A program made the translations under genes and the position numbers. A model generated the notes under the pieces. That model searched no databases and was not told the DNA's origin. It was given only the letters and a program-made list of their open reading frames with translations. This document shows, one piece after another, positions 8,589 to 26,719 of a stretch of DNA of 33,387 nucleotides; positions within the stretch are counted from its first letter, which is position 1, and the number at the start of each line of letters is the position of its first letter. This stretch comes from Deltaproteobacteria bacterium (GTDB lineage: Bacteria; Desulfobacterota; Desulfarculia; Adiutricales; Adiutricaceae). Location of the stretch: contig JAISET010000169.1 of NCBI GenBank assembly GCA_031264015.1, positions 1 to 33,387 on the forward strand, written 5' to 3'.

Positions 8589-8617
8589 CCCCCGCCGGGC
8601 TGTCCTCCAGGGGCACC

Positions 8618-9466: not shown

Positions 9467-9610
9467 GCGAACGGAGGCGGCGGCGGGAGTCTCGGACGAG
9501 GCCGGGATATCCGGCTGAAAACGCGGAAAATTTGGCGGCCGGGCGGAAAGAATGGCTGTCGGGCGGAAAGAATGGCTGTCGGACGAAAATTTGGCCATGA
9601 AAAGAAAAAA

Positions 9611-9640
9611 GCCTCCTGGCAAGCATTCCAGGAGGCTTTT
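9611..9640. terminator. bidirectional intrinsic terminator (perfect 9-bp stem gcctcctgg/ccaggaggc, 8-nt loop, flanked by an A-run upstream and a T-run downstream)
   Basis: aaagaaaaaagcctcctggcaagcattccaggaggctttt. Confidence 0.6.
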
Positions 9641-10312
9641 GACATGCCTGTCGCGGGACCGTGATTGCGAGACGCCCTCCCACTTCGAAAGGACGGGCGT
9701 TCTCAGGCAATTAGAATATAGGCACCGCCTGGCCTTGTGTCAAGGTCTGAGGAAAAGAAAATTTCCATTTTTTTTCAAAGGGGCGTCTTTTTCCCCGGGC
9801 GCGGGCGTCTCCGCCCCCCGGAAGAGCCAGCCTGTCGCCGCGCCGTCTCTCGCCGCCAGGCGTTCCCGCCGGGGGAGCCTCCCGGAGGCGGTCGGCGGAA
9901 GACGGGAAATTTTGCATAAAAAAAAACCCGGACTGACGAAATCCAGGGGGCTTTTATCAGGGCGGACTTTGACGAACTTCAGCGGACTTTAAGAACCGAA
10001 AATCATCGCTTTCTTCGGCGCGGACAGACCCTTTGTCCGCGGAGGATCGCCAGCGCGGTCAGGATTAAGGCCATAGTCGACTCCCGGCCAAATGTCAAGT
10101 TCGGAAGGGCGAAAATTTCAATATTTATTCATCCGAGTAGTTCCGCGCCTGTCGGCCAAAATTTCGGACGACGGCCGCGACGGCTGAGGACGGAGTCCCT
10201 GCCAAACCATATGCAGGCAGGTGGAAAGTTAAAATTTGTTTTTTTTAACTATATAGCCATACATACAATTGTTATACAATAATATCAACTGAATTTCCAA
10301 CGACGCCATCCC

Positions 10313-10575
10313 TTTTTCTCTCCCGAACAATAGTTCTCCCCAGAGATCTGTTCAACCCAGAAAATCAATTCTCCCAAGATTATTAATTCTCCCCATTAAT
10401 ATCGTTCCCCCAGGCCAGGTATTTCCCCCCGCAAATTTAGTTCTCCCAAGCAGGCTGTTTCTCCCACCAAATTGCGTTCTCCCCAGCAGGCTAACTCCCC
10501 CCTAAATTGCGTTCTCCCCAGCAGGGTAATTCTCCCCTCAAGTTACGTTCTCCCCAGCAGGGTAATTCTCCCCGC
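10313..10575. repeat. array of about 14 copies of a (A/G)TTCTCCCC motif, period about 18-19 bp, left flank of the IS1634-like gene
   Basis: Copies such as tagttctccccag, aattctcccaag, gcgttctccccagcaggc (three times) and taattctcccc, read directly. Confidence 0.8.
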
Positions 10576-11113
10576 CCCGCCTCCCCGTCGCCTGCCAGGC
10601 GTCGTCTCAATCGTTGTTTCAAGTGTCGCCGGCCCCCCGGAAAAGTCGTCCGTCCCGAGGTGACGACCGGGGGCAGCCTGGCCCGGGGCTGCCGGCTTGG
10701 ATTCCAGTTTGGGATTTCGGGCGCTGTCGCCTGGAGCCCCGAGTCTCAATTTGAAGTCAGTCTTCCGTCTGATGCCTCGAGTCGGAAACCGCGGTCGGAG
10801 ATTGCTGAAAAGGTGTGCGGACAGTCCCCGACCAGATAATTCATCCCGACAGCCGCCGCCCGGTCCGGCTCGGGGGGCTGGCTTCCAGCTGTCGGCCAGG
10901 GAGTCGAAAAAGCGGAAGTTGTTGCATTTAAAGGATTGGAGGCAGGCCGGGGTGGAAAGAAACAGGCGGCTTGAAGGGGGGAGGAGGCAGGCCGGGCTTT
11001 GGGGACGTGCCTGGGGAGGGCGGGCATGGGCGCCTGGCTTTGGGGACGGGCTTGGGGGGCCGACATTGGCTCCGACGACAACGGCAATGACAGGGAGCGG
11101 CTATTTCGAGTGG

Positions 11114-13165
11114 TCAGACAATGGATGGAGGCAAAGGAAGAGAGAAGGAACTGAAAATCTCTTTTTGAATAGCATTTGGGATGTTAACATATTCGATATT
11201 CTTATATTTAAATGATTTAAGCAAGTTTAATTCTGATAAAATATTACTTAAAGTATATTTTTTAGATATGTCAGAGTTAATATAGATTTTATAAATATGG
11301 CTGAAGATAATATTAGCCAGAAAAATAATAAAAAATGTGTTGGCATAATTAGTTTTAGCCATGTAACTAAATCTAAAAAAGCTCATATGCTTTATGAACG
11401 CATTGTTCATATCAAAAATTTGGTTTCTTATTTTATAAATGTCATAAATTTCCTGAGGGGCCTGGTCGACATTGCTCAGAATGACGAAATATCCCTCTTT
11501 GGACAAGTACTTGTCCACTTCGGCCTCGTTGATGACAACGCCCCCGTCGTCTTGAAAGAGCAGGAATCTGTCGTACTCGGTGCGCCTGACCAGGCCGAGT
11601 TTGTCTTTTTGCCTCGCCTCCCGAATTCTATTGAGGTTGGTGAAGAAGGACTGCCGTTCGTTGAGGGCGGCCATGGGGTTGAAGTAAACGTAGGCCCGGA
11701 GCAGGCGGCCGCTGTTTTCCCCCGCCTCCTCCTCCGCTTTGGTCCCGCCTCTTTCAACGCCATTTTTCTCAGTCATCCCCCATTTTTCCTCCGCCATTCT
11801 CAATTTTTCCTCTGTTGCCAGCCATTTTTCCGTTCCTGTCTCCTCTTTTCTTTCCGCGTCCTCGCCGCCGCCTGACTTGGATAAATCCGCGGGCCGGCCG
11901 GCCTCCAGGTCGTAGACGATCTTGAGCCCCCGGACAGTCTCGCCTGCGGAGCCGGTGGCGATGTAGTTGGAGGCGCTGTCTATGGAGCCGGAGGCAGATT
12001 TGATGATGTCCAAAACCAGCCGGTCGGCCGCGGGCGCGCGCAGGGCGAAATTGACTTTGTTTTCATCCAGCAGTTCTTTGAGGAAATTTAAAGAGTAAAA
12101 ATCCTCGGTTAAAAAGATGTCGGCGTTCCGGCAGTCGAAGTCTTTCTCCAGCATGCCGCGCACGTCCGCAAGCACCTGCCCGTAGGTCCGCTTCTCGTCG
12201 ACAAAATGCTGGCAGACGGGCAGCAGGGAGTCCCGTCCGTAGAGGGTGACAATGTTGCCTTTGCCGACTTGATTGGCGGACTGGCCGGCCTCGGCAAACC
12301 TGCCCAACTCGGCGCTCTGCCTGAGAATGGACTTTGTCTCCGTCAGGACGAAATCGCTTTCGTTGTGGCGTCGGTTCCAATTTTTAAAGAAAGATTCTCT
12401 TTTTATGGGAAGAATATTGTTGATAAGAGAAGTCAGCTTGGTAAATGAAAATAAATTTCTGTTTATGTCGGTGTTGTCTTCCAGCCAGTAGCCAATCTCT
12501 TCCAGCTGTTTGTTGGTTGACAGTAGAAAAAATAGGAAATTATTGATAAATTCATAGTTAAAGCTAAAAATATCCTTTAAATTTGATTCTATATCCAACT
12601 GTCTGACTATTTGAGAAAAGAAATATTGCACGCCAAAATGCCTGAACCCGCCCGCCTCCATGGGGTTGAACTTGGCGGAGGATCTCGCCGGCCCCGCGGC
12701 CTCGCCCCCGGTAACAATCCTCTCCGGCGCCCGGACCGCCCGCCCCGAAGTCGGCGCCGCCTGCCCTGAAGCCCGGACCGCCCGGCCGGAGGCGCGGTCC
12801 CCCCGGACGTCCGGGGCGCCCGCGGCGGCAAATGTCCGGCAGCCGTCAACCTCCCCGGCCGGCCCATCCGGCGCGCCCGGACGGGCGGACCCCGGCCGCT
12901 CGCTTGTCTTCCCCGCCTCCCCCCCCTCCTCCGTCTTTCCAGGCAGAGGGTAGATCCGCCCTTGAATTTTGACGGAGACGGCGGAGGTCGTCTCCAAAAA
13001 CGACCTCTTGAAGACCAGGTCGCCGGTGGCCGGGTCAACCTTGCCGATGTAGAACTTCGTGTTCTTGTTGGACTTGCTGGTCGGGTCGTAGTTGGAGACG
13101 GACTCGACGATGTAGGTGAAGCCCTTCTTATTCACGAACATGTACGACTTGGAAGCCACGACCAC
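11114..13165 (-). CDS. IS1634-family (IS4 superfamily) DDE transposase, apparently intact. The true start may be the MFVNKK methionine at 13141.
   Basis: N-terminus MFVNKKGFTYIVESVSNYDPTSKSNKNTKFYIGKV resembles the IS1634-family N-terminus (MF..KK...Y..VES). C-terminal GYFVILSNV and YDIYKIRNQIFDMNNAFIKHM resemble the IS4-type Y-x2-R-x3-E-x6-K region, though F replaces E and the spacing is off by one. The low-GC gene body contains GC-rich in-frame inserts. Confidence 0.6.
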   Translation of the reverse strand: MVVASKSYMFVNKKGFTYIVESVSNYDPTSKSNKNTKFYIGKVDPATGDLVFKRSFLETTSAVSVKIQGRIYPLPGKTEEGGEAGKTSERPGSARPGAPDGPAGEVDGCRTFAAAGAPDVRGDRASGRAVRASGQAAPTSGRAVRAPERIVTGGEAAGPARSSAKFNPMEAGGFRHFGVQYFFSQIVRQLDIESNLKDIFSFNYEFINNFLFFLLSTNKQLEEIGYWLEDNTDINRNLFSFTKLTSLINNILPIKRESFFKNWNRRHNESDFVLTETKSILRQSAELGRFAEAGQSANQVGKGNIVTLYGRDSLLPVCQHFVDEKRTYGQVLADVRGMLEKDFDCRNADIFLTEDFYSLNFLKELLDENKVNFALRAPAADRLVLDIIKSASGSIDSASNYIATGSAGETVRGLKIVYDLEAGRPADLSKSGGGEDAERKEETGTEKWLATEEKLRMAEEKWGMTEKNGVERGGTKAEEEAGENSGRLLRAYVYFNPMAALNERQSFFTNLNRIREARQKDKLGLVRRTEYDRFLLFQDDGGVVINEAEVDKYLSKEGYFVILSNVDQAPQEIYDIYKIRNQIFDMNNAFIKHMSFFRFSYMAKTNYANTFFIIFLANIIFSHIYKIYINSDISKKYTLSNILSELNLLKSFKYKNIEYVNIPNAIQKEIFSSFSLPLPPSIV

Positions 13166-13205
13166 CGTCCTCTCGACCCGACGCCCGGGGGCGAGGCCGA
13201 CATAA

Positions 13206-13547
13206 TGGGAGAACTAACCCGGGGGAGCCAGGCCCCCGTGATTGGGCGAACTACCCTTGGGAGAACCAAGCCCGCCTAAAGGGGGAACCGACGCGGAAGA
13301 ACGCCCGGGGGAGAACAAGTTTGACTGAGGGGAGAACCGACCTGGGTTCTCCCTGCAGGCCCGGCAATGAGAAAGGCGAAATCCGGGCGCGCAAGGCTCG
13401 AAATTGGGATCATTATACTCCGATGAAGACAAAAAGAACAGTTTGTTAAACGAAAGAACAGTTTTTCAGGTGATTTTCCCAACGATTTTCAAGCCGCCGA
13501 TCAAGTTCTCCCTAGAATGGAGAACCACGACTTCTGGGGAGAAACAT
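13206..13547. repeat. array of about 10 copies of a GGGAGAAC motif, in inverted orientation relative to the left array, with one palindromic pair GTTCTCCCTAGAATGGAGAAC. Right flank of the IS1634-like gene.
   Basis: Copies gggagaactaaccc, gggcgaactaccc, gggagaaccaagcc, ggggagaacaag, ggggagaaccgacc, gggttctccctgcagg, gttctccctagaatggagaacc and ggggagaaacattt, read directly. Confidence 0.8.
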
Positions 13548-13955
13548 TTCCACCCATCCAGATCGTGGCTGAAAGCAAAGACTTTTTAGCTATTATCATA
13601 ACAAAAATTCAAAAATGCATAATTTTACTTCGCAATTATGCCGATCCTGACCAGCCGGTTTTTGGCGCCGGGAGCAATCTGACCCGGGGCATAAAAAAAA
13701 GGGAGAAAAAGTTCTCCTTTTAAAAAATTCCACCCATAAATTTCCACCCACAATTTCTCCCCGTCTTTCGTCGGCGTCTTCGTCGGGAGATAAATAGAAA
13801 TAATTGTGGCGATTTACCATATAGCTATATCCTGGATGCAATTATCTCGTATATAAAACTCCGTCAAAATTACCTTGAAAAAGCCCCGCGGCCGCAGGTC
13901 TGCCACCGGCCGGCCGCGGGTCTGCCGTCGGCCGGCCCGTCTAAATCACCGACCC

Positions 13956-16106
13956 TCAGCCGGTTATCTCGGCGGCCGCCTCCACGAGGGGGCCGACCTG
14001 CTCGAGGACGCTTCTGAACAGCTCGGGCTGTTGTATTTTGGGCATTTCCTGGAAAACCTGGCCCTGGGCGTAGTTGGCCTGGTTGCTGGCGTAGTCGTCG
14101 ACCCTGGCCCTGCTTTTGACCGAGCCGTCGGGATAATACTCCACGACCATCCCCGACTCCCGGCCGGCGACATATTCGGCGGACCTGAGCAGCTTGCCGT
14201 TGTCGTCCAGCTCCAAAACCGTCCCCTGGATCGTCCCGCGGCTCAGGGGGAGCAGCCGGCTGACCCTCTGGCTCCCGCCGTCCAAGGGCGGGTGGAGCTC
14301 CAGGGCCAGGCCCTCGGGCTCGCCGTTCCGGTAGTTGATCACCTTGGTCAGGCTCATGTCTTGGTCGAAGTAAAGCCTCGGCCCCTCGGGCGCGCCGCCC
14401 CGGAAGGCGGTGAGGGTGCTGAGAAGTCTTTTCCCTCCCGGACCCCGCCGCGGCTCGTAGACCAGGCCGTCCGCCGGCCGGCCCGCGGGCGTCCGGCAGA
14501 CGACGGGGGAGCCGCCGCACCTGAGGTCCGCCAGGTCGTAGACCGCCCGCCCGGAGATCACGGCCGGGACCGCCGGGGAGCCGGAAGACCCGCCCCCGGT
14601 CGAAGTCCCCGCCCCGCCGCCGTCAGCTTGGGACGACGGGGACGAGGACGCTGACGACGATGGCGACGAGGACGCTGACGACGAGCGTGACGAGGACGCT
14701 GACGACGAGCGCGACGAGGATGCTGACGACGAGGGCGACGAGGACGCTGACGACGAGGGCGACGACGGGACGGACGGGGCCGCCGGGGGCGAGGAGACGC
14801 CCGCCGACCGGGACGGTGGCCGGGAGAGGGACCGCGTGAAATTTCGGAAGTCGAAGCCGAAGGCCATGACGATGACGGAGACGACGGTGACGACGAGAAA
14901 CTTCAGGCGGTCGGACTCGGTCCTGGCCAGAAACGGTCTGACCGGCGGCTGGCTGTCGGCCAGCAGCTTGGCCCGCTCGACCTCCGGCAGGGGGTTGCTG
15001 CCGTCGGTGATCTCGAGTTTCTTGGCGGCCAGGCTGGCCCCGCGCTTTAATCTGGAAAAACTGGAGATGCTCCTGGAGCGGAGCATCCCGAACAGGAGGG
15101 CGATGATCCCCGAGGCGGCCAGGGGGATCAGGGTGTCGGAGAAGTCCAACAAATTCCCGTAGACGCCCAGGCAGGCGAGGCCGAAGACCATGGCGACGAA
15201 GAGAAGCGGCAGGTAGCCCCTGGTCTTCATTTTCTGGCGGCCGGCGTCCACCGGCATGGGGTCGGCCAGATGGGCCCCCAGGGCCACGCCCTCGGCGAGG
15301 ATCTTGTACTCGGAGCCGCCGTAGCTGAAGACGAAACGGCCCAGGGGCAGGAAGCCCGCCTTGACCGGGGTGGAGAAGGTGACGTCGGCGTCGGCGGCCC
15401 AGTCGCGCTGGCGGTCGCCCTTGGCGTGCTGGCGGGCGGCCTGGATGGCGTCCTGCTTGGCGACCAGCCCCAGGATGTACGAGGTGGCCCCCTTGGCGTC
15501 CTGATTGAAGTCCAGGGGGGCGTAGCCGGTCATCAGGACCTGGTCGTAGGGGACGGCCCCCTGGGAGGGGATGCGGCCCTCCACCAGGGCCACCGCCTTC
15601 GGGGGCAGCTGGTCGGAGCCGGCGGCGCAGCAGACGCGCCTGAAGGACCCGCTGGCCGTGCCGCTGGCCGGGCGCCAGTCGGTCACGGTGCGGTACCTGG
15701 TCACCGGCCTGGAGCGGGAGTTGCCGCGGGAGTCGGTGTAGTTCTCGTACTCGGTGTAGGCCTCCTGCCGGTCGAAGCCGAAGGAGGCCGACCAGCGGCT
15801 GACGAACGTCCCCTCCCCCAGAAAGCACGGGACGTAGACGAAGGTCTCCTCCTCGACCTGGCTGGCGTCCAGGATGTCGTCGGGGACCGTCTCGGGCTTG
15901 ACCATCAGGGTGTGGGCCATGGCGCGCAGCTCGGCCTGGCTGACCGCCGCGGGCACGATGAACTCGATCTTGAGCTCGGCCTCGGCCGTCGGCTTTAACA
16001 GGGAGACCGCGGAGCCGCAATATTGGCAGGTGGCGGTCAGCAAGCCGGGGGTCAGCTCGACGTCCGCCCCGCAGCTCTGGCAGACGATGTGGGTCAGCGC
16101 TTCCAT
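13956..16106 (-). CDS. 716-aa multidomain protein: N-terminal C4 zinc ribbon, about 270-aa globular region, three TM helices, Ser-rich tandem-repeat linker, C-terminal MORN-like (YwqK-type) repeats. Third gene of the operon.
   Basis: CQSCG...CQYCG at the N-terminus. TM segments YLPLLFVAMVFGLACLGVY, LIPLAASGIIALLFGML and FLVVTVVSVIVMAFGF. Linker SSSASSSP repeated about 5.5 times. C-terminal NYRNGEPEG...LDDNGKLLRSAEYVAGRESGMVVEYYPDGSVKS. Hairpin-plus-T-run terminator candidate on the minus strand at about 13870-13925. Confidence 0.75.
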   Translation of the reverse strand: MEALTHIVCQSCGADVELTPGLLTATCQYCGSAVSLLKPTAEAELKIEFIVPAAVSQAELRAMAHTLMVKPETVPDDILDASQVEEETFVYVPCFLGEGTFVSRWSASFGFDRQEAYTEYENYTDSRGNSRSRPVTRYRTVTDWRPASGTASGSFRRVCCAAGSDQLPPKAVALVEGRIPSQGAVPYDQVLMTGYAPLDFNQDAKGATSYILGLVAKQDAIQAARQHAKGDRQRDWAADADVTFSTPVKAGFLPLGRFVFSYGGSEYKILAEGVALGAHLADPMPVDAGRQKMKTRGYLPLLFVAMVFGLACLGVYGNLLDFSDTLIPLAASGIIALLFGMLRSRSISSFSRLKRGASLAAKKLEITDGSNPLPEVERAKLLADSQPPVRPFLARTESDRLKFLVVTVVSVIVMAFGFDFRNFTRSLSRPPSRSAGVSSPPAAPSVPSSPSSSASSSPSSSASSSRSSSASSSRSSSASSSPSSSASSSPSSQADGGGAGTSTGGGSSGSPAVPAVISGRAVYDLADLRCGGSPVVCRTPAGRPADGLVYEPRRGPGGKRLLSTLTAFRGGAPEGPRLYFDQDMSLTKVINYRNGEPEGLALELHPPLDGGSQRVSRLLPLSRGTIQGTVLELDDNGKLLRSAEYVAGRESGMVVEYYPDGSVKSRARVDDYASNQANYAQGQVFQEMPKIQQPELFRSVLEQVGPLVEAAAEITG
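14641..14768. repeat. 24-bp tandem repeat (about 5.5 copies; gacgaggacgctgacgacgagNNN) encoding SSSASSSP units inside the 716-aa gene
   Basis: Direct reading of near-identical 24-mers. The third-position variation is silent or conservative (P/R). Confidence 0.85.
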
Positions 16107-16211
16107 AAATTTTTCATCATATGTTGTTTTCCGTCAGGTATAGCGTCTCGTCCCGTCAGGCGCGTCGTCAGGCGTCCCGTCAGGCGCGGCCGGGTCGAAA
16201 CGCCCGGCCGG

Positions 16212-16919
16212 TCAGAACCCGCCCCTCTGGCTGTCGCCGGCCTCCCTGCGCCTGACCTGGGCCAGGGAGAGCATCTCGTCGAGGAGGGTCTCGGCGTCGG
16301 CGGCGGAGTCGCCCCCGGCGGAGGAAAACATCCGCTCCAGCTGGGCGGCCTTCCGGACCAGGACGCCGTCCGAGGAGGCGCTGGCCTTGCGGTCGAAGAA
16401 GCGCACCTCCTCGCAGAGTTTCTTGAGCTTTTCGGTCTGCCCCGGGCTCAGTTTGGCCAGCTTGAGGACGCTGTCGAGCCGGCCCAGCAGCTCGATCGGG
16501 GCGGCGATCTTGGCCGCGGTCGCCGCGTCGACGGCCGAGACGCCCCTGGAGGAAACGTAGAAGACGATCTCCAGGCTGACCAGGAGGGCGAAGGCCACCA
16601 GCTCCCAGGGGACCAGCCAGTTGAGGCTGACGGCCAGCCCGGCGGCGTGGACCACGGCCATGGGCAAAGCCAGCAGCAAATACAACCCCAGGACCACGTA
16701 GGAGCCCATGCGGAACAGGGGGCCGGTGCCCGGGGGGGCCAGGTCCTGGACGGCCAGGCCGACGACGACCGCGGTCTCGGAGAGAAGCAGGAAGACCAGG
16801 CCCAGCCATTGGACGTTGGTGCGCTCCCCGGTCAGGATCAGGAAGATGGCCAGGGAGACCAGGATCCAGACGGCGCCGATGACGAGGACGACCTTGAGGC
16901 GCGGGCTGACTTTTTCCAT
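16212..16919 (-). CDS. integral membrane protein (4 predicted TM helices plus a cytoplasmic helical C-terminus), function unknown. Middle gene of the operon.
   Basis: Hydrophobic segments VVLVIGAVWILVSLAIFLIL, WLGLVFLLLSETAVVVGLAV, VVLGLYLLLALPMAVVHAAGLAV and LVAFALLVSLEIVFYV. The region is GC-rich and GC3-skewed. It lies 93 bp after the gene in front of it on the minus strand. Confidence 0.6.
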   Translation of the reverse strand: MEKVSPRLKVVLVIGAVWILVSLAIFLILTGERTNVQWLGLVFLLLSETAVVVGLAVQDLAPPGTGPLFRMGSYVVLGLYLLLALPMAVVHAAGLAVSLNWLVPWELVAFALLVSLEIVFYVSSRGVSAVDAATAAKIAAPIELLGRLDSVLKLAKLSPGQTEKLKKLCEEVRFFDRKASASSDGVLVRKAAQLERMFSSAGGDSAADAETLLDEMLSLAQVRRREAGDSQRGGF

Positions 16920-17027
16920 GTCGCTTGTCCTTCCGGGCGGCCGGGCTGCCGGCCGGGTTGTCTGCCGGCCCGTGCGGCCGGGGAATTCGGGCGGGGGCGT
17001 CCGGGCCGGGGGACCCGCCCCCGCGGC

Positions 17028-18326
17028 TCAGAGCCTGGTCCCGCAGGAGGGGCAGAACTGGGAGGCCCCCGGCTGCTCCAGCCCGCAGGAGGGGCATTTC
17101 TTGGTCAGGGCGCCGCCGCAGGAGGGGCAGAACTTGGAGCCCGGGGGGACCTTCTGGCCGCACAGGGGGCAGGGCTGGGGCAGTTTCGCCCCGCATTTGG
17201 GGCAGACGGCCGTCCCCTGGGGCAGGTCCTCCCCGCAGCTCGGGCAGGGGTTGTAGGGGTCGCCGCAGTTGGGGCAGAACTGGGAGGTCTTGGCGAACAT
17301 CGTCCCGCACTTGTCGCACTTGACCGTGTCGGGGGCCTGCTGCCGGCCTCCTCCCGCCTGGGGGAGCGGCTTGCCGCAGTCCGGGCAGAAGCGCCTGCCC
17401 TCGGGGACCATGGCCTGGCAGCCGGGGCAGCGGACGGAGCCCGCCGCGGAGAGGTTCTGGGCCATCCCCCCGAACTGGGCGCCCATGGGCCCGCCCAGGC
17501 CCAGGCCCATGCCCAGGCCGAGGCCGGCCCCCATCACGCCCGCCTGGCCGGAGCCGGGGTTGGTGGCGGCCCCCTCCAGGGTGTCGAAGGTGCGCTCCTG
17601 CTGGTAGTTGTAGCCGATGATGTCCATCTCGGCCTTCTTGGCCAGGGCGGCCTTGAGCTGGACCACGGCCGGGTCGTTCTCGGGGACGCTGACGTCGTTG
17701 ATGTAAAAGTTGACCAGCTCGATGCCGTACTCCGCCATGACGGGCTTGACCCGGTCCTTGACGTGGTCGGCCAGCTCCTCGAGATAGGCGTTGATCTCCA
17801 GGACGCCGATTTTCTTGTGGACCAGGTAGCCGGCCAGGGAGTCCTTGACCTTGTTCAGATACAGGCCCTTGAAATAGCGGGTCAGGGTCTCCTGGTCGAA
17901 GACGGGGACCGTCCCCACGAGTTTGATCAGGAATTTCGACGAGTTGTCGATTCTGATCCCGAACTGCCCGAAGGTGCGCACCGGGACCATGATGCCGAAC
18001 TTGGGGTCCTGCAGCTGGATGGGCGACGGGGTCCCCCACTTGATGTCCAGGGAGTTGGTCTTGTTGACGAACCAGACCTCGGCGGCGAAGGGCGACCTGC
18101 CCCCGAAGGGCAGCTTGAAGAGGGCCGAGAGCAGCGGGATGTTGGCCGTCTCCAGGGTGTGCCTGCCGGGCCCGAGGACGTCCAGGGCCTGGCCGCCCTT
18201 GAAGAAGACGGCCTCCTGGGACTCGTTGACGACGAGCTGGCTCCAGGTGGCCAGCTCCTCGTTGGGAAACTTCCAGGCGAAGACGCTGTTGGGGCCGCTG
18301 TATTTGACTACGTCGATTATGGCCAT
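17028..18326 (-). CDS. SPFH/Band-7-like protein of the YdjI type with a Gly/Met-rich linker and five tandem C-terminal zinc-ribbon (CxxC-x9-12-CxxC) modules. First gene of the operon.
   Basis: N-terminus MAIIDVVKYSGPNSVFAWKFPNEELATWSQLVVNESQEAVFFKGGQALDVLGPGRHTLETANIPLL closely resembles B. subtilis YdjI-type SPFH proteins. GGAGAG RBS 3 nt upstream of the ATG at 18326. C-terminal CPGCQ..CPDCG, CDKCG..CPNCG, CPSCG..CPKCG, CPLCG..CPSCG and CPSCG..CPSCG. Confidence 0.8.
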   Translation of the reverse strand: MAIIDVVKYSGPNSVFAWKFPNEELATWSQLVVNESQEAVFFKGGQALDVLGPGRHTLETANIPLLSALFKLPFGGRSPFAAEVWFVNKTNSLDIKWGTPSPIQLQDPKFGIMVPVRTFGQFGIRIDNSSKFLIKLVGTVPVFDQETLTRYFKGLYLNKVKDSLAGYLVHKKIGVLEINAYLEELADHVKDRVKPVMAEYGIELVNFYINDVSVPENDPAVVQLKAALAKKAEMDIIGYNYQQERTFDTLEGAATNPGSGQAGVMGAGLGLGMGLGLGGPMGAQFGGMAQNLSAAGSVRCPGCQAMVPEGRRFCPDCGKPLPQAGGGRQQAPDTVKCDKCGTMFAKTSQFCPNCGDPYNPCPSCGEDLPQGTAVCPKCGAKLPQPCPLCGQKVPPGSKFCPSCGGALTKKCPSCGLEQPGASQFCPSCGTRL

Positions 18327-19106
18327 GAGATGACTCTCCGGTGCCTGAGCCGCGGGACGAAAAAAAAGAACATGACCGCCGGGCGGCCGGCGCCCGCGGG
18401 CGGCTGGCTGGTGCAACGGGCGGGCGGCTGGGGCAGTGTCAGGCGTATTCTAGCCCCGGCCCGGGTTTTATTCAAGATCCGGCGGCCTCCCCCCCCGGGA
18501 CGAAAGGGTCGGAAAGCGCCAAAAAACGGCGGGCCGCGGGTCAGGCCCGGGCGCCGGCCGGCGGGAGCCCCCCCGGCGGCGCGTCGGCCGGGGCGGCGTT
18601 TCGGGAGACGCCCGGGGAGATGAAGGCGTCGTCGGCCATATTTGAAGAGACTAAACGCGGCGACGGGGAAAGAACAAGCCGTCCTTTCGACGACAGGAAA
18701 GACGCGTCTGTCGCCGCGACATGCGGCGCGCCGTCAATTTCCGTCCGGGCGACGCCCTCCCGGCCCTCCGGACCTGAGGGCGCCGGCTTCCGGTCGGGCC
18801 CGACGCGGTCGAATTCGCCTATGTCCGCGCGGGCCGCGGCGAGCGCCGCCTTTTCTTCCTGGTCGAAGCCTGCGGCCGTCGCCGGCGGGGCCGTGACGGA
18901 CATGACGGCCGGAACAAACATCGGCGACGCCGCCGGCCTCGCGAGTCCGGGGCGGGCTGGGCGCCGGCCGGCCGCGACGACATGGTCGGGGTCTTTCCGA
19001 CTAATATTCCGGCGGGTTGTTGGCGGCGCTCCGACAGTTGGACGGACGAACCGAAGCAAGATTTCAAAAAGACGCTCCCCCCGGCGTCGCGCGACGCCGC
19101 CGCGCC

Positions 19107-20810
19107 CTAGGCCGAGCGCGAGGGGGGCGGGCCGGCGAGACGGGCGACCAGGCCGGGCGCGCTTTGGGCGGTCACCCGGATGACCTTGCCGGCGCGGCCG
19201 TACTCGTGGAACTGACTGAAGCTCTCCGCCGAGGTGACGCGGACGTCCGGACGGCCGCCCATCAGATCCAAAAGGTCCTGTTTGGCCTGGTCCAGGTTGT
19301 AGGAGGGGTTGATTTTTCTGCTCTCGCCCAGGGTGGGGGCGCTCATCAGGCCGTGGTCGGTGTCGGCGTAGAGCTCGGCCTCGACGGTGGGCCTGGCCAG
19401 GGCGGCGCCCAGGGCGTTGGCGGTGGCGGCGCCGGCCGGGGCCGAGCAGGCCAGCCCCAGGGCCTCCCCGGCCAGGGGCGCCAGGGTCTCGGCGGGCCCG
19501 CCCAGAAAGACGGCCCTGTTCGGCTCCAGACGCCAGTCGACCAGAAAGTCGCCCACGGTGTAGACGGGCTGCTGGTTGATTCTCTCCAGAAAAAGTTTGA
19601 TCTCGTCAGCGAGCTTTTCCAGGACCGCCCCCACGCCCTGCCGGGCCAGGCCGACGGGGTCCCCGGGGGCGAGGAGCTCGAAGGCCCTGAGGCTGACCCG
19701 CGGGTCCCCCACGGCGCAGCGGCCCAGGGCGTTCAGGGCGTCGGTCAGCGTCGGAGGGCGCAGGCCCAGGTCGCCGGGGGCCAGGGCCAGGGCGGGGCCG
19801 CGGCGGACCGGCGCGGGGACGAGCCTGCCGTCGACCGGGGCCAGGTCGGTGTCGCCGCCCAGGGCGGCGGAGTGGGTCAGGAGCCCCTTGACCAGGGTGG
19901 GGCGCCCGGCGATGGTCAGGCCCTCGGAGGTCATCAGCGGCGACCCGCGGCTGAAGACGGCCAGGTCGGTGGAGGTGCCGCCCATGTCCACCATCAGGAC
20001 GTCCCCCGGATCGGGGGCCTCGGACGGGCCGGAGGCGTCGGAGAGGGCCCAGAGCCCCAGAAGGCTGGCCGCGGGCCCCGAGGTCAGGGCCAGAACCGGC
20101 CTGGCCCGGGCCGCCGCGAGGCCCATGACCCCGCCGTCGGACTTCAAAACGCAGACGGGGCAGCCCAGGCCCCTGGCCGCGGCCACCTCGCCAAGATCGT
20201 CCAGGAACCTGTCGTAGAGGCGCTTGACGGCGGCGTTCAGGACGGCGCCGCCCAGCCGCCTGGGGAAGTTCAGGCCGCCGAAGAGGGCGGAGGCGGACAT
20301 GACCGGGCCCGGGCAGACCTCCCGGCCCGCGGTCCGCATGACCTCCTCGAGGACGGTGTTCTTGGGCCCGAACTTGCTGCCCACCACCAGGGTGGCGGCG
20401 CCGCGCCCGACCAGGTCCGCGGCCGCCTCGCGGGCCAGCCGCGGGTCCAGGGCCTCGACGACGTGGCCGCGGTGGTCCTGCTGGGCCGGGAGCGCCCGGT
20501 AAAGGGGCCCCCAGGGCCCGGGGTCCAGCTCCAGCCCGGGCCCGCCGGTGGTCATGACGCCCACGGGGTCGGCCGCGCCGGTCAGAAGGCTGTTGAGGCC
20601 CAGGGTGGTGGAGACCGTCAGCCGCTTGAGGGAGGCCGCCCGGCCGCCGGTCAGAAGCTCGTCGAAGACCCGGGCGAGGCTCTCGATGACGCGCACCGAG
20701 GTCCTGGCCTTGGCCGCGTCCACTGGGCGGACCCCGGACTTGGTCTCCTCCAGCAGGACCGCGTCCGTGTGGGTGCCCCCGACATCAACGCCTAAAAACA
20801 CCTTGAACAC
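19107..20810 (-). CDS. hydantoinase/oxoprolinase-family protein (Hydant_A_N-type ATPase fold), GTG start
   Basis: FLGVDVGGTHTDAVLL N-terminal phosphate-binding motif, a second DMGGTSTDLAVF motif, 567 aa. Confidence 0.65.
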   Translation of the reverse strand: MFKVFLGVDVGGTHTDAVLLEETKSGVRPVDAAKARTSVRVIESLARVFDELLTGGRAASLKRLTVSTTLGLNSLLTGAADPVGVMTTGGPGLELDPGPWGPLYRALPAQQDHRGHVVEALDPRLAREAAADLVGRGAATLVVGSKFGPKNTVLEEVMRTAGREVCPGPVMSASALFGGLNFPRRLGGAVLNAAVKRLYDRFLDDLGEVAAARGLGCPVCVLKSDGGVMGLAAARARPVLALTSGPAASLLGLWALSDASGPSEAPDPGDVLMVDMGGTSTDLAVFSRGSPLMTSEGLTIAGRPTLVKGLLTHSAALGGDTDLAPVDGRLVPAPVRRGPALALAPGDLGLRPPTLTDALNALGRCAVGDPRVSLRAFELLAPGDPVGLARQGVGAVLEKLADEIKLFLERINQQPVYTVGDFLVDWRLEPNRAVFLGGPAETLAPLAGEALGLACSAPAGAATANALGAALARPTVEAELYADTDHGLMSAPTLGESRKINPSYNLDQAKQDLLDLMGGRPDVRVTSAESFSQFHEYGRAGKVIRVTAQSAPGLVARLAGPPPSRSA

Positions 20811-20939
20811 CTGCGCGCAGATTATGTGGTTTTGGAAAATAACGGGGTTTTCTAATTTTCAGCGGCCTTGTCAGCGGCCTTATTTGGCCATGAGGCTATA
20901 ATTTTGTCCAAATCCCCAAGAAATTATCGACCGCCCCCG

Positions 20940-21170
20940 TTTCCCGAAATCCGCGTTTCGCGGAAAATCAAAGGCCGCGGACGGCGACAACCCTGAAAAA
21001 TTACAATCCCCCCCCGGCCGCCGTCCGCGAAAACTCAACCGCGCGAACGCTCGAACATGCAGGCCGTCGGACAAAAATTCCGGCCGCCCGCGGCGCGGTC
21101 GTCAAAAACTTAAACTCCGGCCGCCGGGGCAAAATTCTGAACCCGCGGCGCCCCGCCAAAAATCAGCGGG
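20940..21170. repeat. about 8 degenerate 28-32-bp repeats, each starting with an A5-6 tract followed by GC-rich CCGGCCGCC-like sequence (phased A-tracts)
   Basis: aaaatcaaaggccgcgg / aaaaattacaatccccccccggccgcc / aaaactcaaccgcgcg / aaaaattccggccgcccgcgg / aaaaacttaaactccggccgccgggg / aaaattctgaacccgcggcgccccgcc / aaaaatcagcggg. Confidence 0.6.
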
Positions 21171-22119
21171 AGGCGCTCAGATAGTCGAACCTGAACTCCA
21201 TGGCCGGGTTGTCGCTGGCCCCCTGGAAAATGGCCGGGAGCGGCGGGAAGGCCGAGCGGTCGATGGCCTGCTGGACGGACTGGTCGAAGACCTCGTCCCC
21301 GCTGGAGCGCCGGACGTTCTTGCCGGCGATGCGGCCGTCCGGCTGGATGACTATGACCACGGTCACCTTGAGGTCGGGGCGCATGGACAGGGACGGGGGC
21401 ACCCAGTTGGCGCGGACTATCTCCCTGATGCGCGAGTAGTAGGCCATCCTCTCGGGGTCCAAAAGGACGCCCGTGTTGGAGCCGCTCTGGTTGGAGGAGG
21501 TGCCGTTGCCGAGCCCGCGGCTCTGGGCGATGTTGCCGACGGCGCTGTTGATGGCCTCGTCGGCGTTGTCGGCCTCGACCCGGCGGCGGATCTCGTCGAT
21601 GGACCTGTTGATGGAGGCCTGGGGGTTGGGCCTCTGGGCCCTGGGCTTGGGTTTGGGCGGCTCCTCGACGGGCTTGGGGGGCGGGGAGACTTTCGGGGGA
21701 GGCTCGGCCGCCTTGACCACGGGCTCGGGGACCGTCTCGGGGGGGCGCTCGCCGATGGGGATGGCCTCGGTGGGGGGAATGACGGGGGTGACCATCTGCT
21801 CGAGGGGGGTGGGCTGGGGGACGACCGGGTCGGTCCTGGGGAGCTCCACCACGTCGGGCCCGCGGTAGGACGGGTCGACGGGGGCGGGCGGCGCGGCCGG
21901 GGCCGGGGGCTCCAGCCCGCCCAGGAGCTGCACGGTCATGACCTCGAAGGGGAGCTCGCGGGGGGCGCCAAGGTTGAGCCAGCCGGGCACGAACAAGGAG
22001 CCGGCGAGCACCGCGGCGTGGAGCAGCACGGAGACCAGCAGCACGGGCAGAAGGTTCGCCTCCCCGGCCCCGACGGCCGGGTCGCTCCCGGGACGGTTGT
22101 CCAGCGGCGCGGGTCTCAT
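21163..22119 (-). CDS. tolA: TolA/TonB-family energy-transducing protein (N-terminal TM anchor, Pro-rich spacer, TonB-type C-terminal domain)
   Basis: TM helix LLPVLLVSVLLHAAVLAGSLFV. A long Pro/Glu/Lys-rich spacer (PVEEPPKPKPRAQ). The C-terminal domain ends ...AMEFRFDYLSASR. It lies downstream of tolQ/tolR. Confidence 0.7.
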   Translation of the reverse strand: MRPAPLDNRPGSDPAVGAGEANLLPVLLVSVLLHAAVLAGSLFVPGWLNLGAPRELPFEVMTVQLLGGLEPPAPAAPPAPVDPSYRGPDVVELPRTDPVVPQPTPLEQMVTPVIPPTEAIPIGERPPETVPEPVVKAAEPPPKVSPPPKPVEEPPKPKPRAQRPNPQASINRSIDEIRRRVEADNADEAINSAVGNIAQSRGLGNGTSSNQSGSNTGVLLDPERMAYYSRIREIVRANWVPPSLSMRPDLKVTVVIVIQPDGRIAGKNVRRSSGDEVFDQSVQQAIDRSAFPPLPAIFQGASDNPAMEFRFDYLSASR

Positions 22120-22313
22120 GTTCTCGCCTCCGGCGGGGAGCCGGTCGGCCCCGCGATTGTCTTGGTCGCTTTCATTATCTGGGGCCTCGTCCCGACGATC
22201 TTGCTCCCGATCTTGCTCCCGATCTTGTTCCCGATCTTGTTCCCGATCTTTTTCATGACGCCGAAAATAGTTATGTCCTTAGTCCTAACACCTAATTCTA
22301 ATCCTGACACCAA
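22116..22313 (-). CDS. small repeat-containing ORF (65 aa; KIGNKIGNKIGSKIGSKI) whose stop overlaps the tolA start (ATGA). Coding status uncertain.
   Basis: The 4-nt overlap geometry with tolA suggests translational coupling. The repeats come from a 12-bp tandem array. Confidence 0.3.
   Translation of the reverse strand: MVSGLELGVRTKDITIFGVMKKIGNKIGNKIGSKIGSKIVGTRPQIMKATKTIAGPTGSPPEART
22197..22256. repeat. 12-bp tandem repeat gatcttg(c/t)tccc, about 5 copies
   Basis: gatcttgctccc gatcttgctccc gatcttgttccc gatcttgttccc gatctttttcat. Confidence 0.85.
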
Positions 22314-22369
22314 ATCCCAATCTCTAATTCCAATCCAAAATCATCGTCCTAATCCCCATGACGACCGTC

Positions 22370-22810
22370 CTACCGCGGCGTCTGCTCGCGGCGGTCGGCG
22401 GGCTCGGTGACCAGGCCGACGTTGGTGATGCCGGCCTCGCGCAGGGCGCCCATGATGGAGGCCACCCGCCCGTAGGGGACGCTTTGGTCGGCCTTCAGGT
22501 ACAGGCTCTCGGTGCCCTTGACGCGCATGACCTGGCGCACCTGGGCGTCCAAATTGTCGATGCTGGCCAGGGTCGTGCCGTCAAGCACAACCCCGCCGTC
22601 GGCGGTCACCGTCAGCATGACCAGGGACGAGTCGGTGCTCATGACGTTGGCGTCGACCTTGGGCAGGTCCACCTCCAGGCCCTGGGTCATCATGGGGGCG
22701 GCCACCATGAAGATGATCAGAAGGACCAGCATGACGTCGACCATGGGGGTGACGTTGATCTCGCTCATCATGGAGCGCCCCTGGAAGGAGCCTCCGTTCC
22801 CTAAAGCCAT
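22370..22810 (-). CDS. tolR: TolR/ExbD-family biopolymer transport protein
   Basis: SEINVTPMVDVMLVLLIIFMV signature, 146 aa, directly downstream of tolQ. Confidence 0.85.
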   Translation of the reverse strand: MALGNGGSFQGRSMMSEINVTPMVDVMLVLLIIFMVAAPMMTQGLEVDLPKVDANVMSTDSSLVMLTVTADGGVVLDGTTLASIDNLDAQVRQVMRVKGTESLYLKADQSVPYGRVASIMGALREAGITNVGLVTEPADRREQTPR

Positions 22811-22811
22811 G

Positions 22812-23588
22812 TCAGAACCCCCCGCCGTCGGACTGTGAGGCCGGGGGCCTCTTCATCAGGTCGCGCTCGAGAATGTTTAAAAAGTCGCTGGTGAAGTTGG
22901 AGATGCGCGTCTCCAGGATCCTCAGGCGGCCGTTGAAATAATTGAAGAAGACGACCGCCGGGATGGCCGTGGCCAGGCCCGCCGCGGTGGCGATCAGGGC
23001 CTCGGAGATGCCGGGGGCCACGGCGGCCAGGTTGGCGGAGCCCCTGAGGCCGATCTCGTGGAAGGAGCCCATGATGCCCCAGACGGTGCCGAAAAGCCCT
23101 ATGAAGGGGGTGGCGTTGCCGCAGCTGGCCAGAAACGGCAGGAACTTGAAGAGCCTGGAGCTCTCGGCCGAGGCCGTCGAGCTCAAAGTCCGCTGGACGT
23201 TGACCAGGGCGGGCCCGGTCTCCAGCTTGGCCTTGTAGACGCGGTTGAGCTCCTGGTAGCCGTTTCTGAACACCTCGGCCAGCGGGGAGCCCGAGTAGTC
23301 CTGGGACTCCGCGTAGAGGGCGGCGAAGGTGCGGCTCTTCCAAAACTTGGAGAGAAACTTGTCCGACTGGCCGGAGGCCCTGGAGTACTGGACCAGCTTG
23401 ATCAGGACGATGGCCCAGGAGGTGACGCTGGCCAGCAGGAGTGTCAGCATGATGGCCTTGACCATGGGCCCCGCGGACATGACCATGGTCAGGATTTCGG
23501 ACTCCGCGGGGCCGCCGCCCAGGGTGACCTCGTTGACGGCCGTCGCGCCGGCCTGGCCCGCGAGGACCAGGATGGAGACAGGGGACAT
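22812..23588 (-). CDS. tolQ: TolQ/ExbB-family (MotA/TolQ/ExbB) proton channel protein
   Basis: Three-TM topology with the conserved GLFGTVWGIM and LIATAAGLATAIPAVVFFN segments. AAGGAAG RBS upstream of the ATG at 23588. Confidence 0.85.
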   Translation of the reverse strand: MSPVSILVLAGQAGATAVNEVTLGGGPAESEILTMVMSAGPMVKAIMLTLLLASVTSWAIVLIKLVQYSRASGQSDKFLSKFWKSRTFAALYAESQDYSGSPLAEVFRNGYQELNRVYKAKLETGPALVNVQRTLSSTASAESSRLFKFLPFLASCGNATPFIGLFGTVWGIMGSFHEIGLRGSANLAAVAPGISEALIATAAGLATAIPAVVFFNYFNGRLRILETRISNFTSDFLNILERDLMKRPPASQSDGGGF

Positions 23589-24379
23589 TAATTCTTCCTT
23601 GGCTATTCCGATAAAGTTAATTGACAGGCCGCCCCCCCCGCGAGGAGCCGCCCCGCCGACGCCTTGCGGGCCGGCCGATCCCGGGGGCGTCCGGCCGGAT
23701 GGCGGGCGCTCATGGTCAGCTGCGTATTATAGAGGATTGTCAGCCCAGCGTAAAGCAAATTTTTTCTATTTCCCCGGTACTTGCCCTAAAAGACCCCCAA
23801 ATCCTCTAAACTTACGCCCGGAACCGGCCCCCCCGCCCCGACATCCCCGCGACCGGACACCGGACCCAGCGGCGCGTCCCCCCCCCCAGCGGCCGGCCTC
23901 CCGGACCCTTGGTCGCAAGATGACCGGGGGGCCGCCCGAGACGAGGTGGGGGACGACCCGGACCTCCGGCCCGAAGACCCGGAGGATGATTTGCTCCGTC
24001 AGCGCCTCCTCCGGGCGGCCCCTGGCCGGGATCCCGCCCTTTTCAAGCAGGTGGAAAAGTCGCGGTGTTTGGCGGCCAGACTTACCCATAGTTAAAGAAG
24101 CCGACAAGATTATATCAAAAAAATTTTAGTTAATTTAGAATCTTATGCTATAAGTTCCTATGGCGAAGGGACATTTTCAGCGACGCGTTCCACCCCTCTC
24201 CAGTCCGAAATCAGGGGGCGGCATGAGAAAACCCTCCTCTTCCGGGCGGCAACCGCTGGGATTATTTGGGGCCGTTTAAATGATTGTTTGAAGATCGATT
24301 GATAAAACTATCAAAAAAATGCCCAAAGGCAGGTTAAGACTGTTTAAAGGCTGATCAAAGACTATGTAAAGTTTTGCCG

Positions 24380-26715: not shown

Positions 26716-26719
26716 TGCT

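What the first reader, a model, noticed from the sequence alone, without database searches (positions are those of the whole stretch)
13956..18326. Three-gene operon: YdjI-type SPFH protein fused to five zinc ribbons, a 4-TM protein, and a 716-aa Zn-ribbon/TM/Ser-repeat/MORN protein
The first gene's N-terminal 290 aa closely resemble Bacillus YdjI, the SPFH protein required for PspA recruitment. Here the protein is extended by a Gly/Met-rich low-complexity linker and five tandem CxxC...CxxC zinc-ribbon modules. In B. subtilis the zinc-ribbon partner (YdjG) is a separate protein. The third gene combines an N-terminal zinc ribbon, a large globular region, three TM helices, a perfect 8-aa Ser-rich tandem-repeat spacer and C-terminal MORN-like repeats. 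The gene order and these domain fusions differ from the described pspA-ydjGHI module. This may be an undescribed envelope-stress or membrane-remodelling system. Its linkage within 12 kb of a PspF-type regulator is suggestive.
Basis: partly seen in the sequence, partly recalled or inferred. Interest (0 to 1): 0.8.

Follow-up and report, generated by a model that had tools for sequence, protein, structure and literature searches.

The report
PspA-less YdjI/YdjG-type SPFH membrane module
This is a real, widely conserved but unstudied three-gene operon: a Gram-negative relative of the Bacillus SamGHI (YdjGHI) membrane-stress module that lacks PspA, has a different middle membrane protein, and carries an added periplasmic MORN-repeat domain.

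Summary
The three minus-strand genes exist as described. g1 (17028-18326) has a Band_7_1 SPFH domain, a Gly/Met linker and five zinc ribbons. g2 (16212-16919) is a 4-TM protein in no known family. g3 (13956-16106) has a zinc ribbon, a globular domain, three TM helices, a Ser-rich repeat and a MORN-fold domain.

B. subtilis YdjI already has SPFH, a low-complexity linker and a C-terminal zinc ribbon, so the fusion is not new; only the number of ribbons differs (5 vs 1). g1 is 23% identical to YdjI, which is not "close". The cytoplasmic domain of g3 is a clear YdjG homologue (hhalign 99.9%, E 1e-31). g2 is unrelated to the TPM protein YdjH.

The order SPFH, 4-TM, YdjG-like is conserved in termite-gut, human-gut, soil, freshwater and sewage contigs and in Oxalobacter. 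Of 22 close g3 relatives with enough upstream DNA, 19 follow it; the other 3 are extra paralogues. Flanking genes differ between lineages. SPFH tails swap between 5 zinc ribbons and SHOCT. g3's periplasmic ends swap between MORN, TPR, Sel1 and none.

No PspA gene is linked. The PspF-like regulator 11.7 kb away is not conserved, and no sigma-54 promoter precedes g1.

Verdict: a new variant of a known kind, with function inferred by analogy only.

The parts
18447..18475 (-). sigma-70-like promoter candidate (TTGAAT-17-TAGAAT), about 120 nt upstream of the g1 start
   Evidence: Consensus scan. This is a pattern match only.
17028..18326 (-). g1: soluble YdjI/SamI-type SPFH protein, 432 aa
   Evidence: Band_7_1 E 1.5e-51. 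Collinear with YdjI at 23% identity, E 3e-19. No hydrophobic segment.
17547..18326 (-). g1 SPFH (Band_7_1) domain, residues about 1-260
17439..17546 (-). g1 Gly/Met/Ala-rich low-complexity linker, residues about 261-296
   Evidence: Sequence read. YdjI has the same type of linker.
17031..17438 (-). g1 five tandem zinc ribbons (10 CxxC motifs), residues 297-432
   Evidence: Orthologues from other lineages have the same count of 10 CxxC.
16212..16919 (-). g2: 4-TM protein with a cytoplasmic helical C-terminal domain, in an uncharacterised family
   Evidence: Four hydrophobic segments. AF2 model is all-helical, pLDDT 66. No Pfam, NCBIfam or PDB family. A homologous middle gene is present in 28 of 31 unique loci.
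13956..16106 (-). g3: YdjG/SamG-type membrane protein with a periplasmic extension, 716 aa
15999..16106 (-). g3 N-terminal zinc ribbon, residues 1-36
   Evidence: CxxC at residues 9 and 27. Matches RNA polymerase subunit P ribbons. Aligns to the second ribbon of YdjG.
15222..15998 (-). g3 cytoplasmic YdjG-like globular domain, residues 37-295
14826..15221 (-). g3 membrane region, residues 296-427: TM1, TM2, a basic cytoplasmic helix and TM3
   Evidence: This region is conserved in the roughly 410-aa core-only homologues.
14571..14825 (-). g3 Ser/Pro-rich disordered linker. It includes the 24-nt tandem repeat at 14632-14765.
   Evidence: TRF: 5.6 copies, 91% matches. pLDDT below 50 for residues 429-509.
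13959..14570 (-). g3 periplasmic MORN-repeat beta domain with a Cys pair (C530, C537) and a terminal helix, residues 513-716
13885..13898 (-). terminator-like hairpin plus T-run, about 58 nt after the g3 stop
   Evidence: Consensus scan. This is a pattern match only.

Best explanation
The locus is a self-contained three-gene operon. It encodes a PspA-independent relative of the Bacillus SamGHI (YdjGHI) SPFH membrane complex, adapted to a diderm envelope.

Proposed mechanism:
1. g3 is the YdjG/SamG homologue. It sits in the inner membrane with its zinc ribbon and YdjG-like domain in the cytoplasm. Its disulfide-capable MORN-repeat domain is held out in the periplasm on a Ser-rich tether.
2. g2, a 4-TM protein with a cytoplasmic helical domain, is its membrane partner. 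It occupies the position that the TPM protein YdjH/SamH has in Bacillus.
3. Together, g2 and g3 recruit the soluble SPFH protein g1 (YdjI/SamI-like) to the cytoplasmic face of the membrane.
4. g1 oligomerises there, as SPFH proteins do. Its flexible Gly/Met linker and five zinc ribbons act as docking modules; in other lineages a SHOCT, HTH or single ribbon takes that place.
5. The periplasmic repeat domain (MORN here; TPR, Sel1 or absent elsewhere) binds or senses an envelope component. The SPFH assembly scaffolds or restrains the membrane pair.

Shown here: the gene anatomy, the homologies, the topology features and the conserved synteny.

Inferred by analogy with B. subtilis SamGHI genetics and localisation data: the physical interactions, the recruitment order and the envelope-stress role.
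For: Anatomy and homology:
- g1 is Band_7_1 plus linker plus zinc ribbons, collinear with YdjI.
- The g3 N-domain is homologous to YdjG. hhalign gives 99.9%, E 1.2e-31 over 251 columns. A transitive link runs through P0045.
- YdjI is described as band-7 plus C-terminal zinc ribbon, and YdjG as zinc ribbons plus a YpeB-like domain plus a TM segment (PMC11237479).

Conserved synteny:
- The order SPFH, roughly 216-235-aa (284 aa in L012) 4-TM gene, g3-like gene is conserved in termite MAGs, Oxalobacter, ENA metagenome contigs and 55 metagenome loci.
- 19 of 22 close relatives with enough upstream DNA follow it. The 3 exceptions are extra paralogues near a full triad.
- Only these three families recur across loci with different flanks.
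- The middle genes form one family.
- A Comamonas replicon carries the SPFH-YdjG-like pair alone.

Operon signals:
- Short intergenic gaps, a sigma-70-like promoter and a terminator-like site bracket the three genes.

Topology:
- g1 has no TM segment, g2 has four and g3 has three.
- The g3 model has mean pLDDT 87, with a disordered Ser-rich linker and a MORN fold.

Functional precedent:
- In B. subtilis, SamG and SamH recruit SamI to the membrane, and SamI restrains SamGH signalling (PMC8581546; bioRxiv 10.64898/2026.02.06.704340).
Against: - No interaction, localisation or phenotype data exist for this triad.
- g2 shows no detectable similarity to YdjH, so the claim that it fills the same role is positional only.
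- No PspA is linked, so the one downstream effector known in Bacillus is missing and the output is unknown.
- g1 is only 23% identical to YdjI.
- The g2 model has low confidence, pLDDT 66.
- The promoter and terminator are consensus matches only.
- Many related loci come from related gut or termite bacteria, so part of the synteny is vertical inheritance. Against that, flanks differ in Oxalobacter, in L013 and in the human-gut contigs.
Confidence: 0.6

Rival explanations
1. It is part of a classical phage-shock (Psp) regulon. The PspF-like sigma-54 activator at about 30034-31233 would drive this operon, which would then act through a PspA encoded elsewhere.
For: A bEBP with no receiver domain has TIGR02974 (pspF) as its best hit, at 404.7 bits from profile position 1. 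YdjGHI is co-operonic with pspA in Bacillus.
Against: - The bEBP score is below the curated cut-off of 443.55.
- No TGGCAC-N5-TTGC match with up to 2 mismatches lies in the 780-nt region upstream of g1. Window-wide matches are fewer than chance.
- A sigma-70-like promoter is present upstream of g1 instead.
- The regulator is 11.7 kb away, beyond hydantoinase, TonB-ExbBD and a low-GC block.
- No bEBP or PspA homologue was found in any related locus searched.
Confidence: 0.07
2. It is an anti-phage or abortive-infection defence system. The SPFH/zinc-ribbon protein would guard a membrane effector (g2 or g3), and the variable C-terminal domains would reflect an arms race.
For: g1 tails and g3 C-termini are swappable modules. 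The module sits among different flanking genes in different lineages. An IS1634-like element lies next to it here.
Against: - None of the three proteins gives a significant PADLOC match; the only sub-0.1 hit is g3 to PD-T4-6 at E 0.014.
- There are no homologues in 50,697 phage records and only one distant hit among 72,556 plasmids.
- Flanking genes are housekeeping: citrate synthase, 2-oxoglutarate dehydrogenase, truA, glutaminase and TonB.
- The variable domains of g3 are periplasmic repeat scaffolds, not nucleases or pore toxins.
Confidence: 0.07
3. It is an SPFH-regulated protease or quality-control module, in the manner of HflK/C-FtsH or stomatin-NfeD. g1 would cage a membrane protease.
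For: This is the best-understood role of bacterial SPFH proteins (my own knowledge, and cited). An M48 peptidase gene lies in the same neighbourhood in the termite clade.
Against: The triad contains no protease or NfeD domain. The M48 gene is about 7.7 kb away on the other strand and is absent from the neighbourhoods in Oxalobacter, L013 and the human-gut contigs. g1 has no TM anchor, unlike HflK/C.
Confidence: 0.08
4. The three genes are merely neighbours with no shared function.
For: No direct functional data exist.
Against: The same order and strand, with tight spacing, recur in lineages whose flanking genes differ. Only these three families recur.
Confidence: 0.03

Closest known systems
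Bacillus subtilis PspA-SamGHI (pspA-ydjGHI) module
   Same: It pairs a soluble Band_7_1 SPFH protein (low-complexity linker plus C-terminal zinc ribbon) with a membrane protein that carries N-terminal zinc ribbon(s) and the YdjG-type globular domain. A second membrane protein is encoded between them, and all three sit in one operon (PMC8581546; PMC11237479).
   Different: - Gene order is I-X-G rather than G-H-I.
- No pspA is linked.
- The middle protein is a 4-TM helical protein unrelated to the TPM-domain YdjH.
- The SPFH tail has five zinc ribbons rather than one.
- The G-like protein has one ribbon rather than two and three TM segments rather than one. It also has a periplasmic Ser-rich tether and a MORN domain.
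- The host is a diderm Desulfobacterota-type MAG.
Band_7_1 (PF13421 / COG4260) proteins with SHOCT or zinc-ribbon tails
   Same: g1 has the family's typical architecture. SHOCT is reported as most commonly associated with PF13421 (PMC3581485). As I recall it, the COG4260 name mentions a C-terminal Zn-ribbon.
   Different: Those descriptions concern the single protein. They do not define the conserved 4-TM and YdjG-like partners found here.
SPFH-NfeD and HflK/C-FtsH systems
   Same: An SPFH oligomer works with operon-encoded membrane partners.
   Different: No NfeD, no protease and no TM anchor on the SPFH protein.
MORN-repeat proteins (MORN3/4, junctophilin; bacterial MORN_2/YwqK-like repeats)
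   Different: Sequence similarity is marginal: Pfam MORN_2 E 0.019, below threshold. The domain here is predicted to be periplasmic and attached to a YdjG-type membrane protein. In orthologous positions it is replaced by TPR or Sel1 repeats.

Membership tests
YdjI/SamI-type SPFH protein (Band_7_1) | Band_7_1 (PF13421) SPFH domain above the gathering score | tested here: met
   175.4 bits against a cut-off of 24, E 1.5e-51. YdjI itself scores 148.7 bits.
YdjI/SamI-type SPFH protein (Band_7_1) | No intrinsic membrane anchor | tested here: met
   No 19-mer has Kyte-Doolittle hydropathy of 1.5 or more.
YdjI/SamI-type SPFH protein (Band_7_1) | Low-complexity linker followed by a C-terminal zinc ribbon | tested here: met
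   A Gly/Met-rich linker is followed by 10 CxxC motifs (five ribbons); YdjI has one ribbon.
YdjI/SamI-type SPFH protein (Band_7_1) | Recruits PspA to the membrane and depends on G/H partners for localisation | not testable with these tools
   This is an experimental property (PMC8581546).
YdjG/SamG family | N-terminal zinc ribbon(s) | tested here: met
   g3 has one ribbon (CxxC at residues 9 and 27) that aligns to the second ribbon of YdjG. YdjG has two.
YdjG/SamG family | YdjG-type (YpeB-related) globular domain | tested here: met
YdjG/SamG family | TM segment after the globular domain | tested here: met
   g3 has three TM segments rather than one.
pspA-ydjGHI operon | TPM-domain YdjH partner | tested here: not met
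   g2 has no TPM domain and no similarity to YdjH.
pspA-ydjGHI operon | Adjacent pspA | tested here: not met
   phmmer with Bacillus PspA finds nothing in the window or in the 65 related loci searched. A single-sequence query has limited sensitivity.
PspF (TIGR02974), for the distant regulator | Score above the equivalog cut-off, and divergent from a sigma-54-driven psp operon | tested here: not met
   404.7 bits against a cut-off of 443.55. No sigma-54 promoter lies upstream of g1 and no pspA is in the window.
MORN repeat fold | Repeated beta-hairpin single-layer sheet | tested here: met
MORN_2 (PF07661) sequence family | Pfam gathering score | tested here: not met
   15.5 bits against a cut-off of 29.6, E 0.019.
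Known anti-phage defence systems (PADLOC-DB) | Match to any component model | tested here: not met
   No hits for g1 or g2. g3 has only a hit at E 0.014 in its TM and low-complexity region.

The most novel reading that the evidence does not exclude
The SPFH, 4-TM and YdjG-like triad is an autonomous transmembrane envelope-sensing device, widespread in Gram-negative bacteria. In this reading the YdjI-YdjG pair is the ancient core, and PspA and TPM-YdjH are Firmicute add-ons. A swappable periplasmic repeat domain (MORN, TPR or Sel1) reads an envelope cue. The signal crosses the membrane to a cytoplasmic SPFH assembly, which gates or restrains the 4-TM partner. This would be a new class of SPFH-based signalling, distinct from protease caging and from ESCRT-III recruitment.
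Probability: 0.3. Interest if true: 0.65.

Novelty: new variant of a known kind. Interest (0 to 1): 0.45.

Why it matters
SamGHI has so far been studied only in Bacillus, and its function there is read through PspA. This locus shows that the SPFH(YdjI)-YdjG pairing extends well beyond Firmicutes without PspA. The evidence is 55 metagenome loci, plus 1,241 cluster representatives at E 1e-30 or better for the wider g3/YdjG superfamily. The variant has a new 4-TM partner and modular periplasmic sensor-like domains.

This supports the recent proposal that SamGH is a stress-sensing membrane complex regulated by the SPFH protein and independent of PspA. It also offers tractable Gram-negative hosts for testing the idea, for example Oxalobacter.

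The work also assigns a family context to proteins now annotated as "hypothetical", "RNA polymerase subunit RPC12/RpoP", "TadD" or "primosomal protein N'".

Tried and rejected
- An exact look-up of g3 in the contig index found nothing, although the protein search returned a 100%-identical entry, P0001.
- The first protein search, with full-length g3, returned only 11 hits. Only the 8000 candidates sharing most words are scored, and I suspect the Ser-rich repeat crowded that list. Searching again with the N-domain profile reached the wider family.
- I considered a shared C-terminal R-x-x-F tail in g2 and YdjH (RGGF, RSKF, RGSF) as a docking motif. I dropped it because most g2 orthologues end differently.
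- The g2 model was too poor (pLDDT 66) to justify a fold search.
- The afdb50 fold library was unavailable.
- Sequence searches of the PDB with the g3 N-domain, the g3 C-domain and the g2 profile gave only zinc-ribbon or noise hits.
- Cluster look-ups gave little taxonomy: only Oxalobacter and Rhodocyclaceae were named.
- A sigma-54 promoter search was negative.
- No g3-like sequence was found in the phage collection.


Full report
**Source and gene calls.** The window is a 33,387-bp contig of a MAG labelled "Deltaproteobacteria bacterium" (locus tag LBP95). Related contigs come from termite-gut samples, as I recall the origin of these JGI samples and locus tags. Three co-directional minus-strand ORFs fill 13956-18326. 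Each has the high GC3 (0.91-0.94) of real genes in this roughly 69% GC stretch. The gaps between them are 108 and 105 nt. g1 starts at the ATG at 18326 rather than the upstream TTG, because orthologues begin MAIID.... A sigma-70-like promoter match lies at 18475-18447(-) and a terminator-like hairpin at 13898-13885(-). Both are pattern matches only, but they bracket exactly these three genes.

**g1 (432 aa).**
- Pfam gives Band_7_1 at E 1.5e-51, DZR at E 2e-28 and five Zn_Ribbon_1 stretches.
- There are exactly ten CxxC motifs between residues 300 and 428.
- A Gly/Met/Ala-rich linker spans about residues 261-296.
- There is no hydrophobic segment.

**g2 (235 aa).**
- It has four hydrophobic helices followed by a cytoplasmic helical region.
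- Pfam, NCBIfam, PADLOC, PHROGs and the PDB give no credible match.

**g3 (716 aa).** The AlphaFold2 model, built on 42 sequences, has mean pLDDT 87. It shows these parts in order:
- an N-terminal zinc ribbon;
- a large alpha/beta domain (residues 37-295);
- three TM helices, with a basic cytoplasmic helix between TM2 and TM3;
- a disordered Ser/Pro-rich segment (residues 429-509), which includes the 24-nt tandem repeat at 14632-14765 (5.6 copies, 91% matches);
- a beta-repeat domain (residues 515-668);
- a terminal helix.

**Relation to YdjGHI.** I fetched a Bacillus pspA-ydjGHI locus using the ydjG primer sequence printed in PMC8581546.
- YdjI is Band_7_1, then a Gly/Met/Gln-rich linker, then one C-terminal zinc ribbon. 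Scholz et al. and Ravi et al. describe it the same way.
- The SPFH-plus-ribbon fusion is therefore the ancestral YdjI architecture, not a merger with YdjG. Only the number of ribbons differs.
- g1 aligns collinearly with YdjI, but at 23% identity (E 3e-19).
- The N-domain profile of g3 matches YdjG-like proteins: HMMER E 1.2e-24 to P0045 in a database of 5.8 billion proteins and hhalign 99%, E 4.9e-18. P0045 is BLASTP E 4e-39 to YdjG over its full length.
- A direct profile-profile comparison with a YdjG-family alignment gives 99.9%, E 1.2e-31 over 251 columns. It aligns g3 residues 3-275 to YdjG residues 50-301, that is, the second ribbon plus the globular domain.
- g2 has no similarity to YdjH, which is a TPM-domain protein.

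**Conservation of the triad.** Lookups of g3 homologues gave the same order (SPFH, then a 4-TM protein of roughly 216-235 aa (284 aa in L012), then a g3-like protein) in several settings:
- other termite MAGs;
- Oxalobacter sp., flanked by citrate synthase and 2-oxoglutarate dehydrogenase;
- ENA metagenome contigs, flanked by FimV, truA and glutaminase.

A metagenome scan returned 55 further loci, from human gut, seawater and other JGI and ENA metagenomes. I analysed these with local HMMs.
- Of 22 unique close g3 relatives with at least 2.3 kb of upstream sequence, 19 have an SPFH gene upstream on the same strand.
- The 3 exceptions are second paralogues lying next to, or 7.6 kb from, a full triad.
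- All-against-all clustering found only these three families recurring across loci with different flanks.
- The middle genes form a single family: 28 of 31 unique ORFs were recovered within three profile iterations (alignment).
- No PspA and no bEBP homologue occurs in any related locus searched.
- More distant two-ribbon YdjG-like proteins of about 370 aa are sometimes solitary. Four of eight had an SPFH gene upstream.
- A Comamonas replicon carries an SPFH-YdjG-like pair with no middle gene.

The SPFH-YdjG pairing therefore looks like the core, with a variable third partner.

**Modularity.**
- SPFH tails in the triad come in two forms: linker plus exactly 10 CxxC motifs, or linker plus SHOCT. 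Comamonas has an HTH-like tail and YdjI has one ribbon.
- The conserved core of g3 (ribbon, YdjG-like domain, three TM) is about 410 aa and often stands alone. Longer members add MORN-like (termite clade), TPR or Sel1 repeats.
- The g3/YdjG superfamily is large. The profile search found 25,125 cluster representatives at E 1e-3 or better, 7,818 at E 1e-10 or better and 1,241 at E 1e-30 or better. Most of the top 150 match the whole core.
- Source annotations are "hypothetical", "RPC12/RpoP", "TadD" or "primosomal protein N'".

**The PspF lead.**
- The 790-aa ORF at 30034-32406(-) is a read-through artefact. Its 5' part overlaps a malic-enzyme-like frame with GC3 0.96.
- The 3' part (about 30034-31233) is a sigma-54 activator with no receiver domain. 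Its best model is TIGR02974 (pspF) at 404.7 bits, below the cut-off of 443.55.
- It lies 11.7 kb from g1. Hydantoinase, TonB, ExbD, ExbB and a low-GC block lie between them.
- No -24/-12 match lies upstream of g1, and the association does not recur elsewhere.
- I treat the linkage as coincidental.

**Mechanism.** In B. subtilis, SamG and SamH are needed to bring SamI to the membrane, and SamI in turn recruits PspA (PMC8581546). A 2026 preprint argues that SamI restrains a SamGH stress-sensing complex and that the developmental phenotype is independent of PspA. By homology (g1, g3) and by position (g2), I propose the following.
1. g3 and g2 form an inner-membrane complex.
2. That complex recruits the soluble g1 SPFH oligomer.
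3. The zinc-ribbon or SHOCT tails act as docking modules.
4. The periplasmic repeat domain acts as the envelope-facing sensor or tether.

Only the anatomy, the homology and the synteny are shown here. The interactions, the stress role and the output are inferred.

**Rivals.**
- Psp regulon membership: see the PspF section above.
- Anti-phage defence: there is no significant PADLOC hit and no homologue in phage records, and only one distant hit among plasmids. The flanking genes are housekeeping.
- Protease caging: the triad contains no protease or NfeD domain.
- Chance adjacency: excluded by the conserved synteny.

**Literature and verdict.** Searches for YdjI/YdjG, PF13421, SPFH with zinc ribbon, and PspA with Band-7, SHOCT and TPM found descriptions of the Firmicute pspA-ydjGHI operon and of Band_7_1-SHOCT proteins. 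None described this triad. I rate it a new variant of a known kind. It is of moderate interest because it separates the SPFH-YdjG core from PspA and extends it to diderm bacteria with periplasmic sensor-like domains.

Noticed in passing
window 9600-13900; ORF 11114-13165 (-): A low-GC stretch of about 4.4 kb carries an IS1634-family transposase-like ORF (NF033559, E 8.5e-14, below cut-off). The ORF has an odd Gly/Ala/Pro-rich, high-GC internal segment. The stretch lies between PhzF and g3. In relatives L002 and L003, PhzF lies 30-530 bp from g3, so this looks like an insertion.
   Followed up: partly
window 30034-32406 (-): The 790-aa ORF is a read-through artefact. Its 5' half overlaps a malic-enzyme-like frame (31218-32327, GC3 0.96, partial matches only). 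Its 3' half is a PspF-like bEBP with no receiver domain, scoring just below the TIGR02974 cut-off.
   Followed up: partly
window 1-2000 and 24000-30000: These are further low-GC blocks (0.37-0.50, against about 0.68 elsewhere). One holds an ISAzo13-like transposase fragment at 327-806(-). The few ORFs at 24-30 kb that were scanned (26047-26781, 27682-28074) match no family. They are probably mobile or foreign DNA.
   Followed up: no
L002 6659-10166; L046 3631-7956; L038 vs L043: g3 is duplicated in some genomes. L002 has a 431-aa core-only copy directly followed by a 721-aa copy. L046 has two long copies in tandem. One contig (L038/L043) has a second copy 7.6 kb from the triad.
   Followed up: partly
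L070 (Comamonas odontotermitis NZ_CP083452) 2414-4894: This is a two-gene version. A Band_7_1 SPFH protein with a Gly/Met/Ala linker and an HTH-like tail is directly followed by a two-ribbon YdjG-like protein, with no middle membrane gene.
   Followed up: yes
window 16212-16230 (g2 C-terminus); L009 4490-4508 (YdjH C-terminus): g2 orthologues in the termite clade and in Oxalobacter end in R-x-x-F (RGGF, RSKF), as does Bacillus YdjH (RGSF). Other clades end in RSKA, NKG and similar, so the motif is not general.
   Followed up: yes
window 2660-9466 and 19107-23588: The conserved neighbourhood in the termite clade contains DsbD_TM, two thioredoxin-like proteins, M48 peptidase, an OEP outer-membrane factor and PhzF on one side. 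Hydantoinase and TonB-ExbD-ExbB lie on the other side. These are envelope-related genes, but they are not linked to the triad in other lineages.
   Followed up: partly
window 14571-14825 vs P0002: The Ser-rich repeat differs in unit composition and length in the 91%-identical orthologue P0002 (SSSAPSSPSP-type units, protein 709 aa against 716 aa). The tether is evolving quickly.
   Followed up: no
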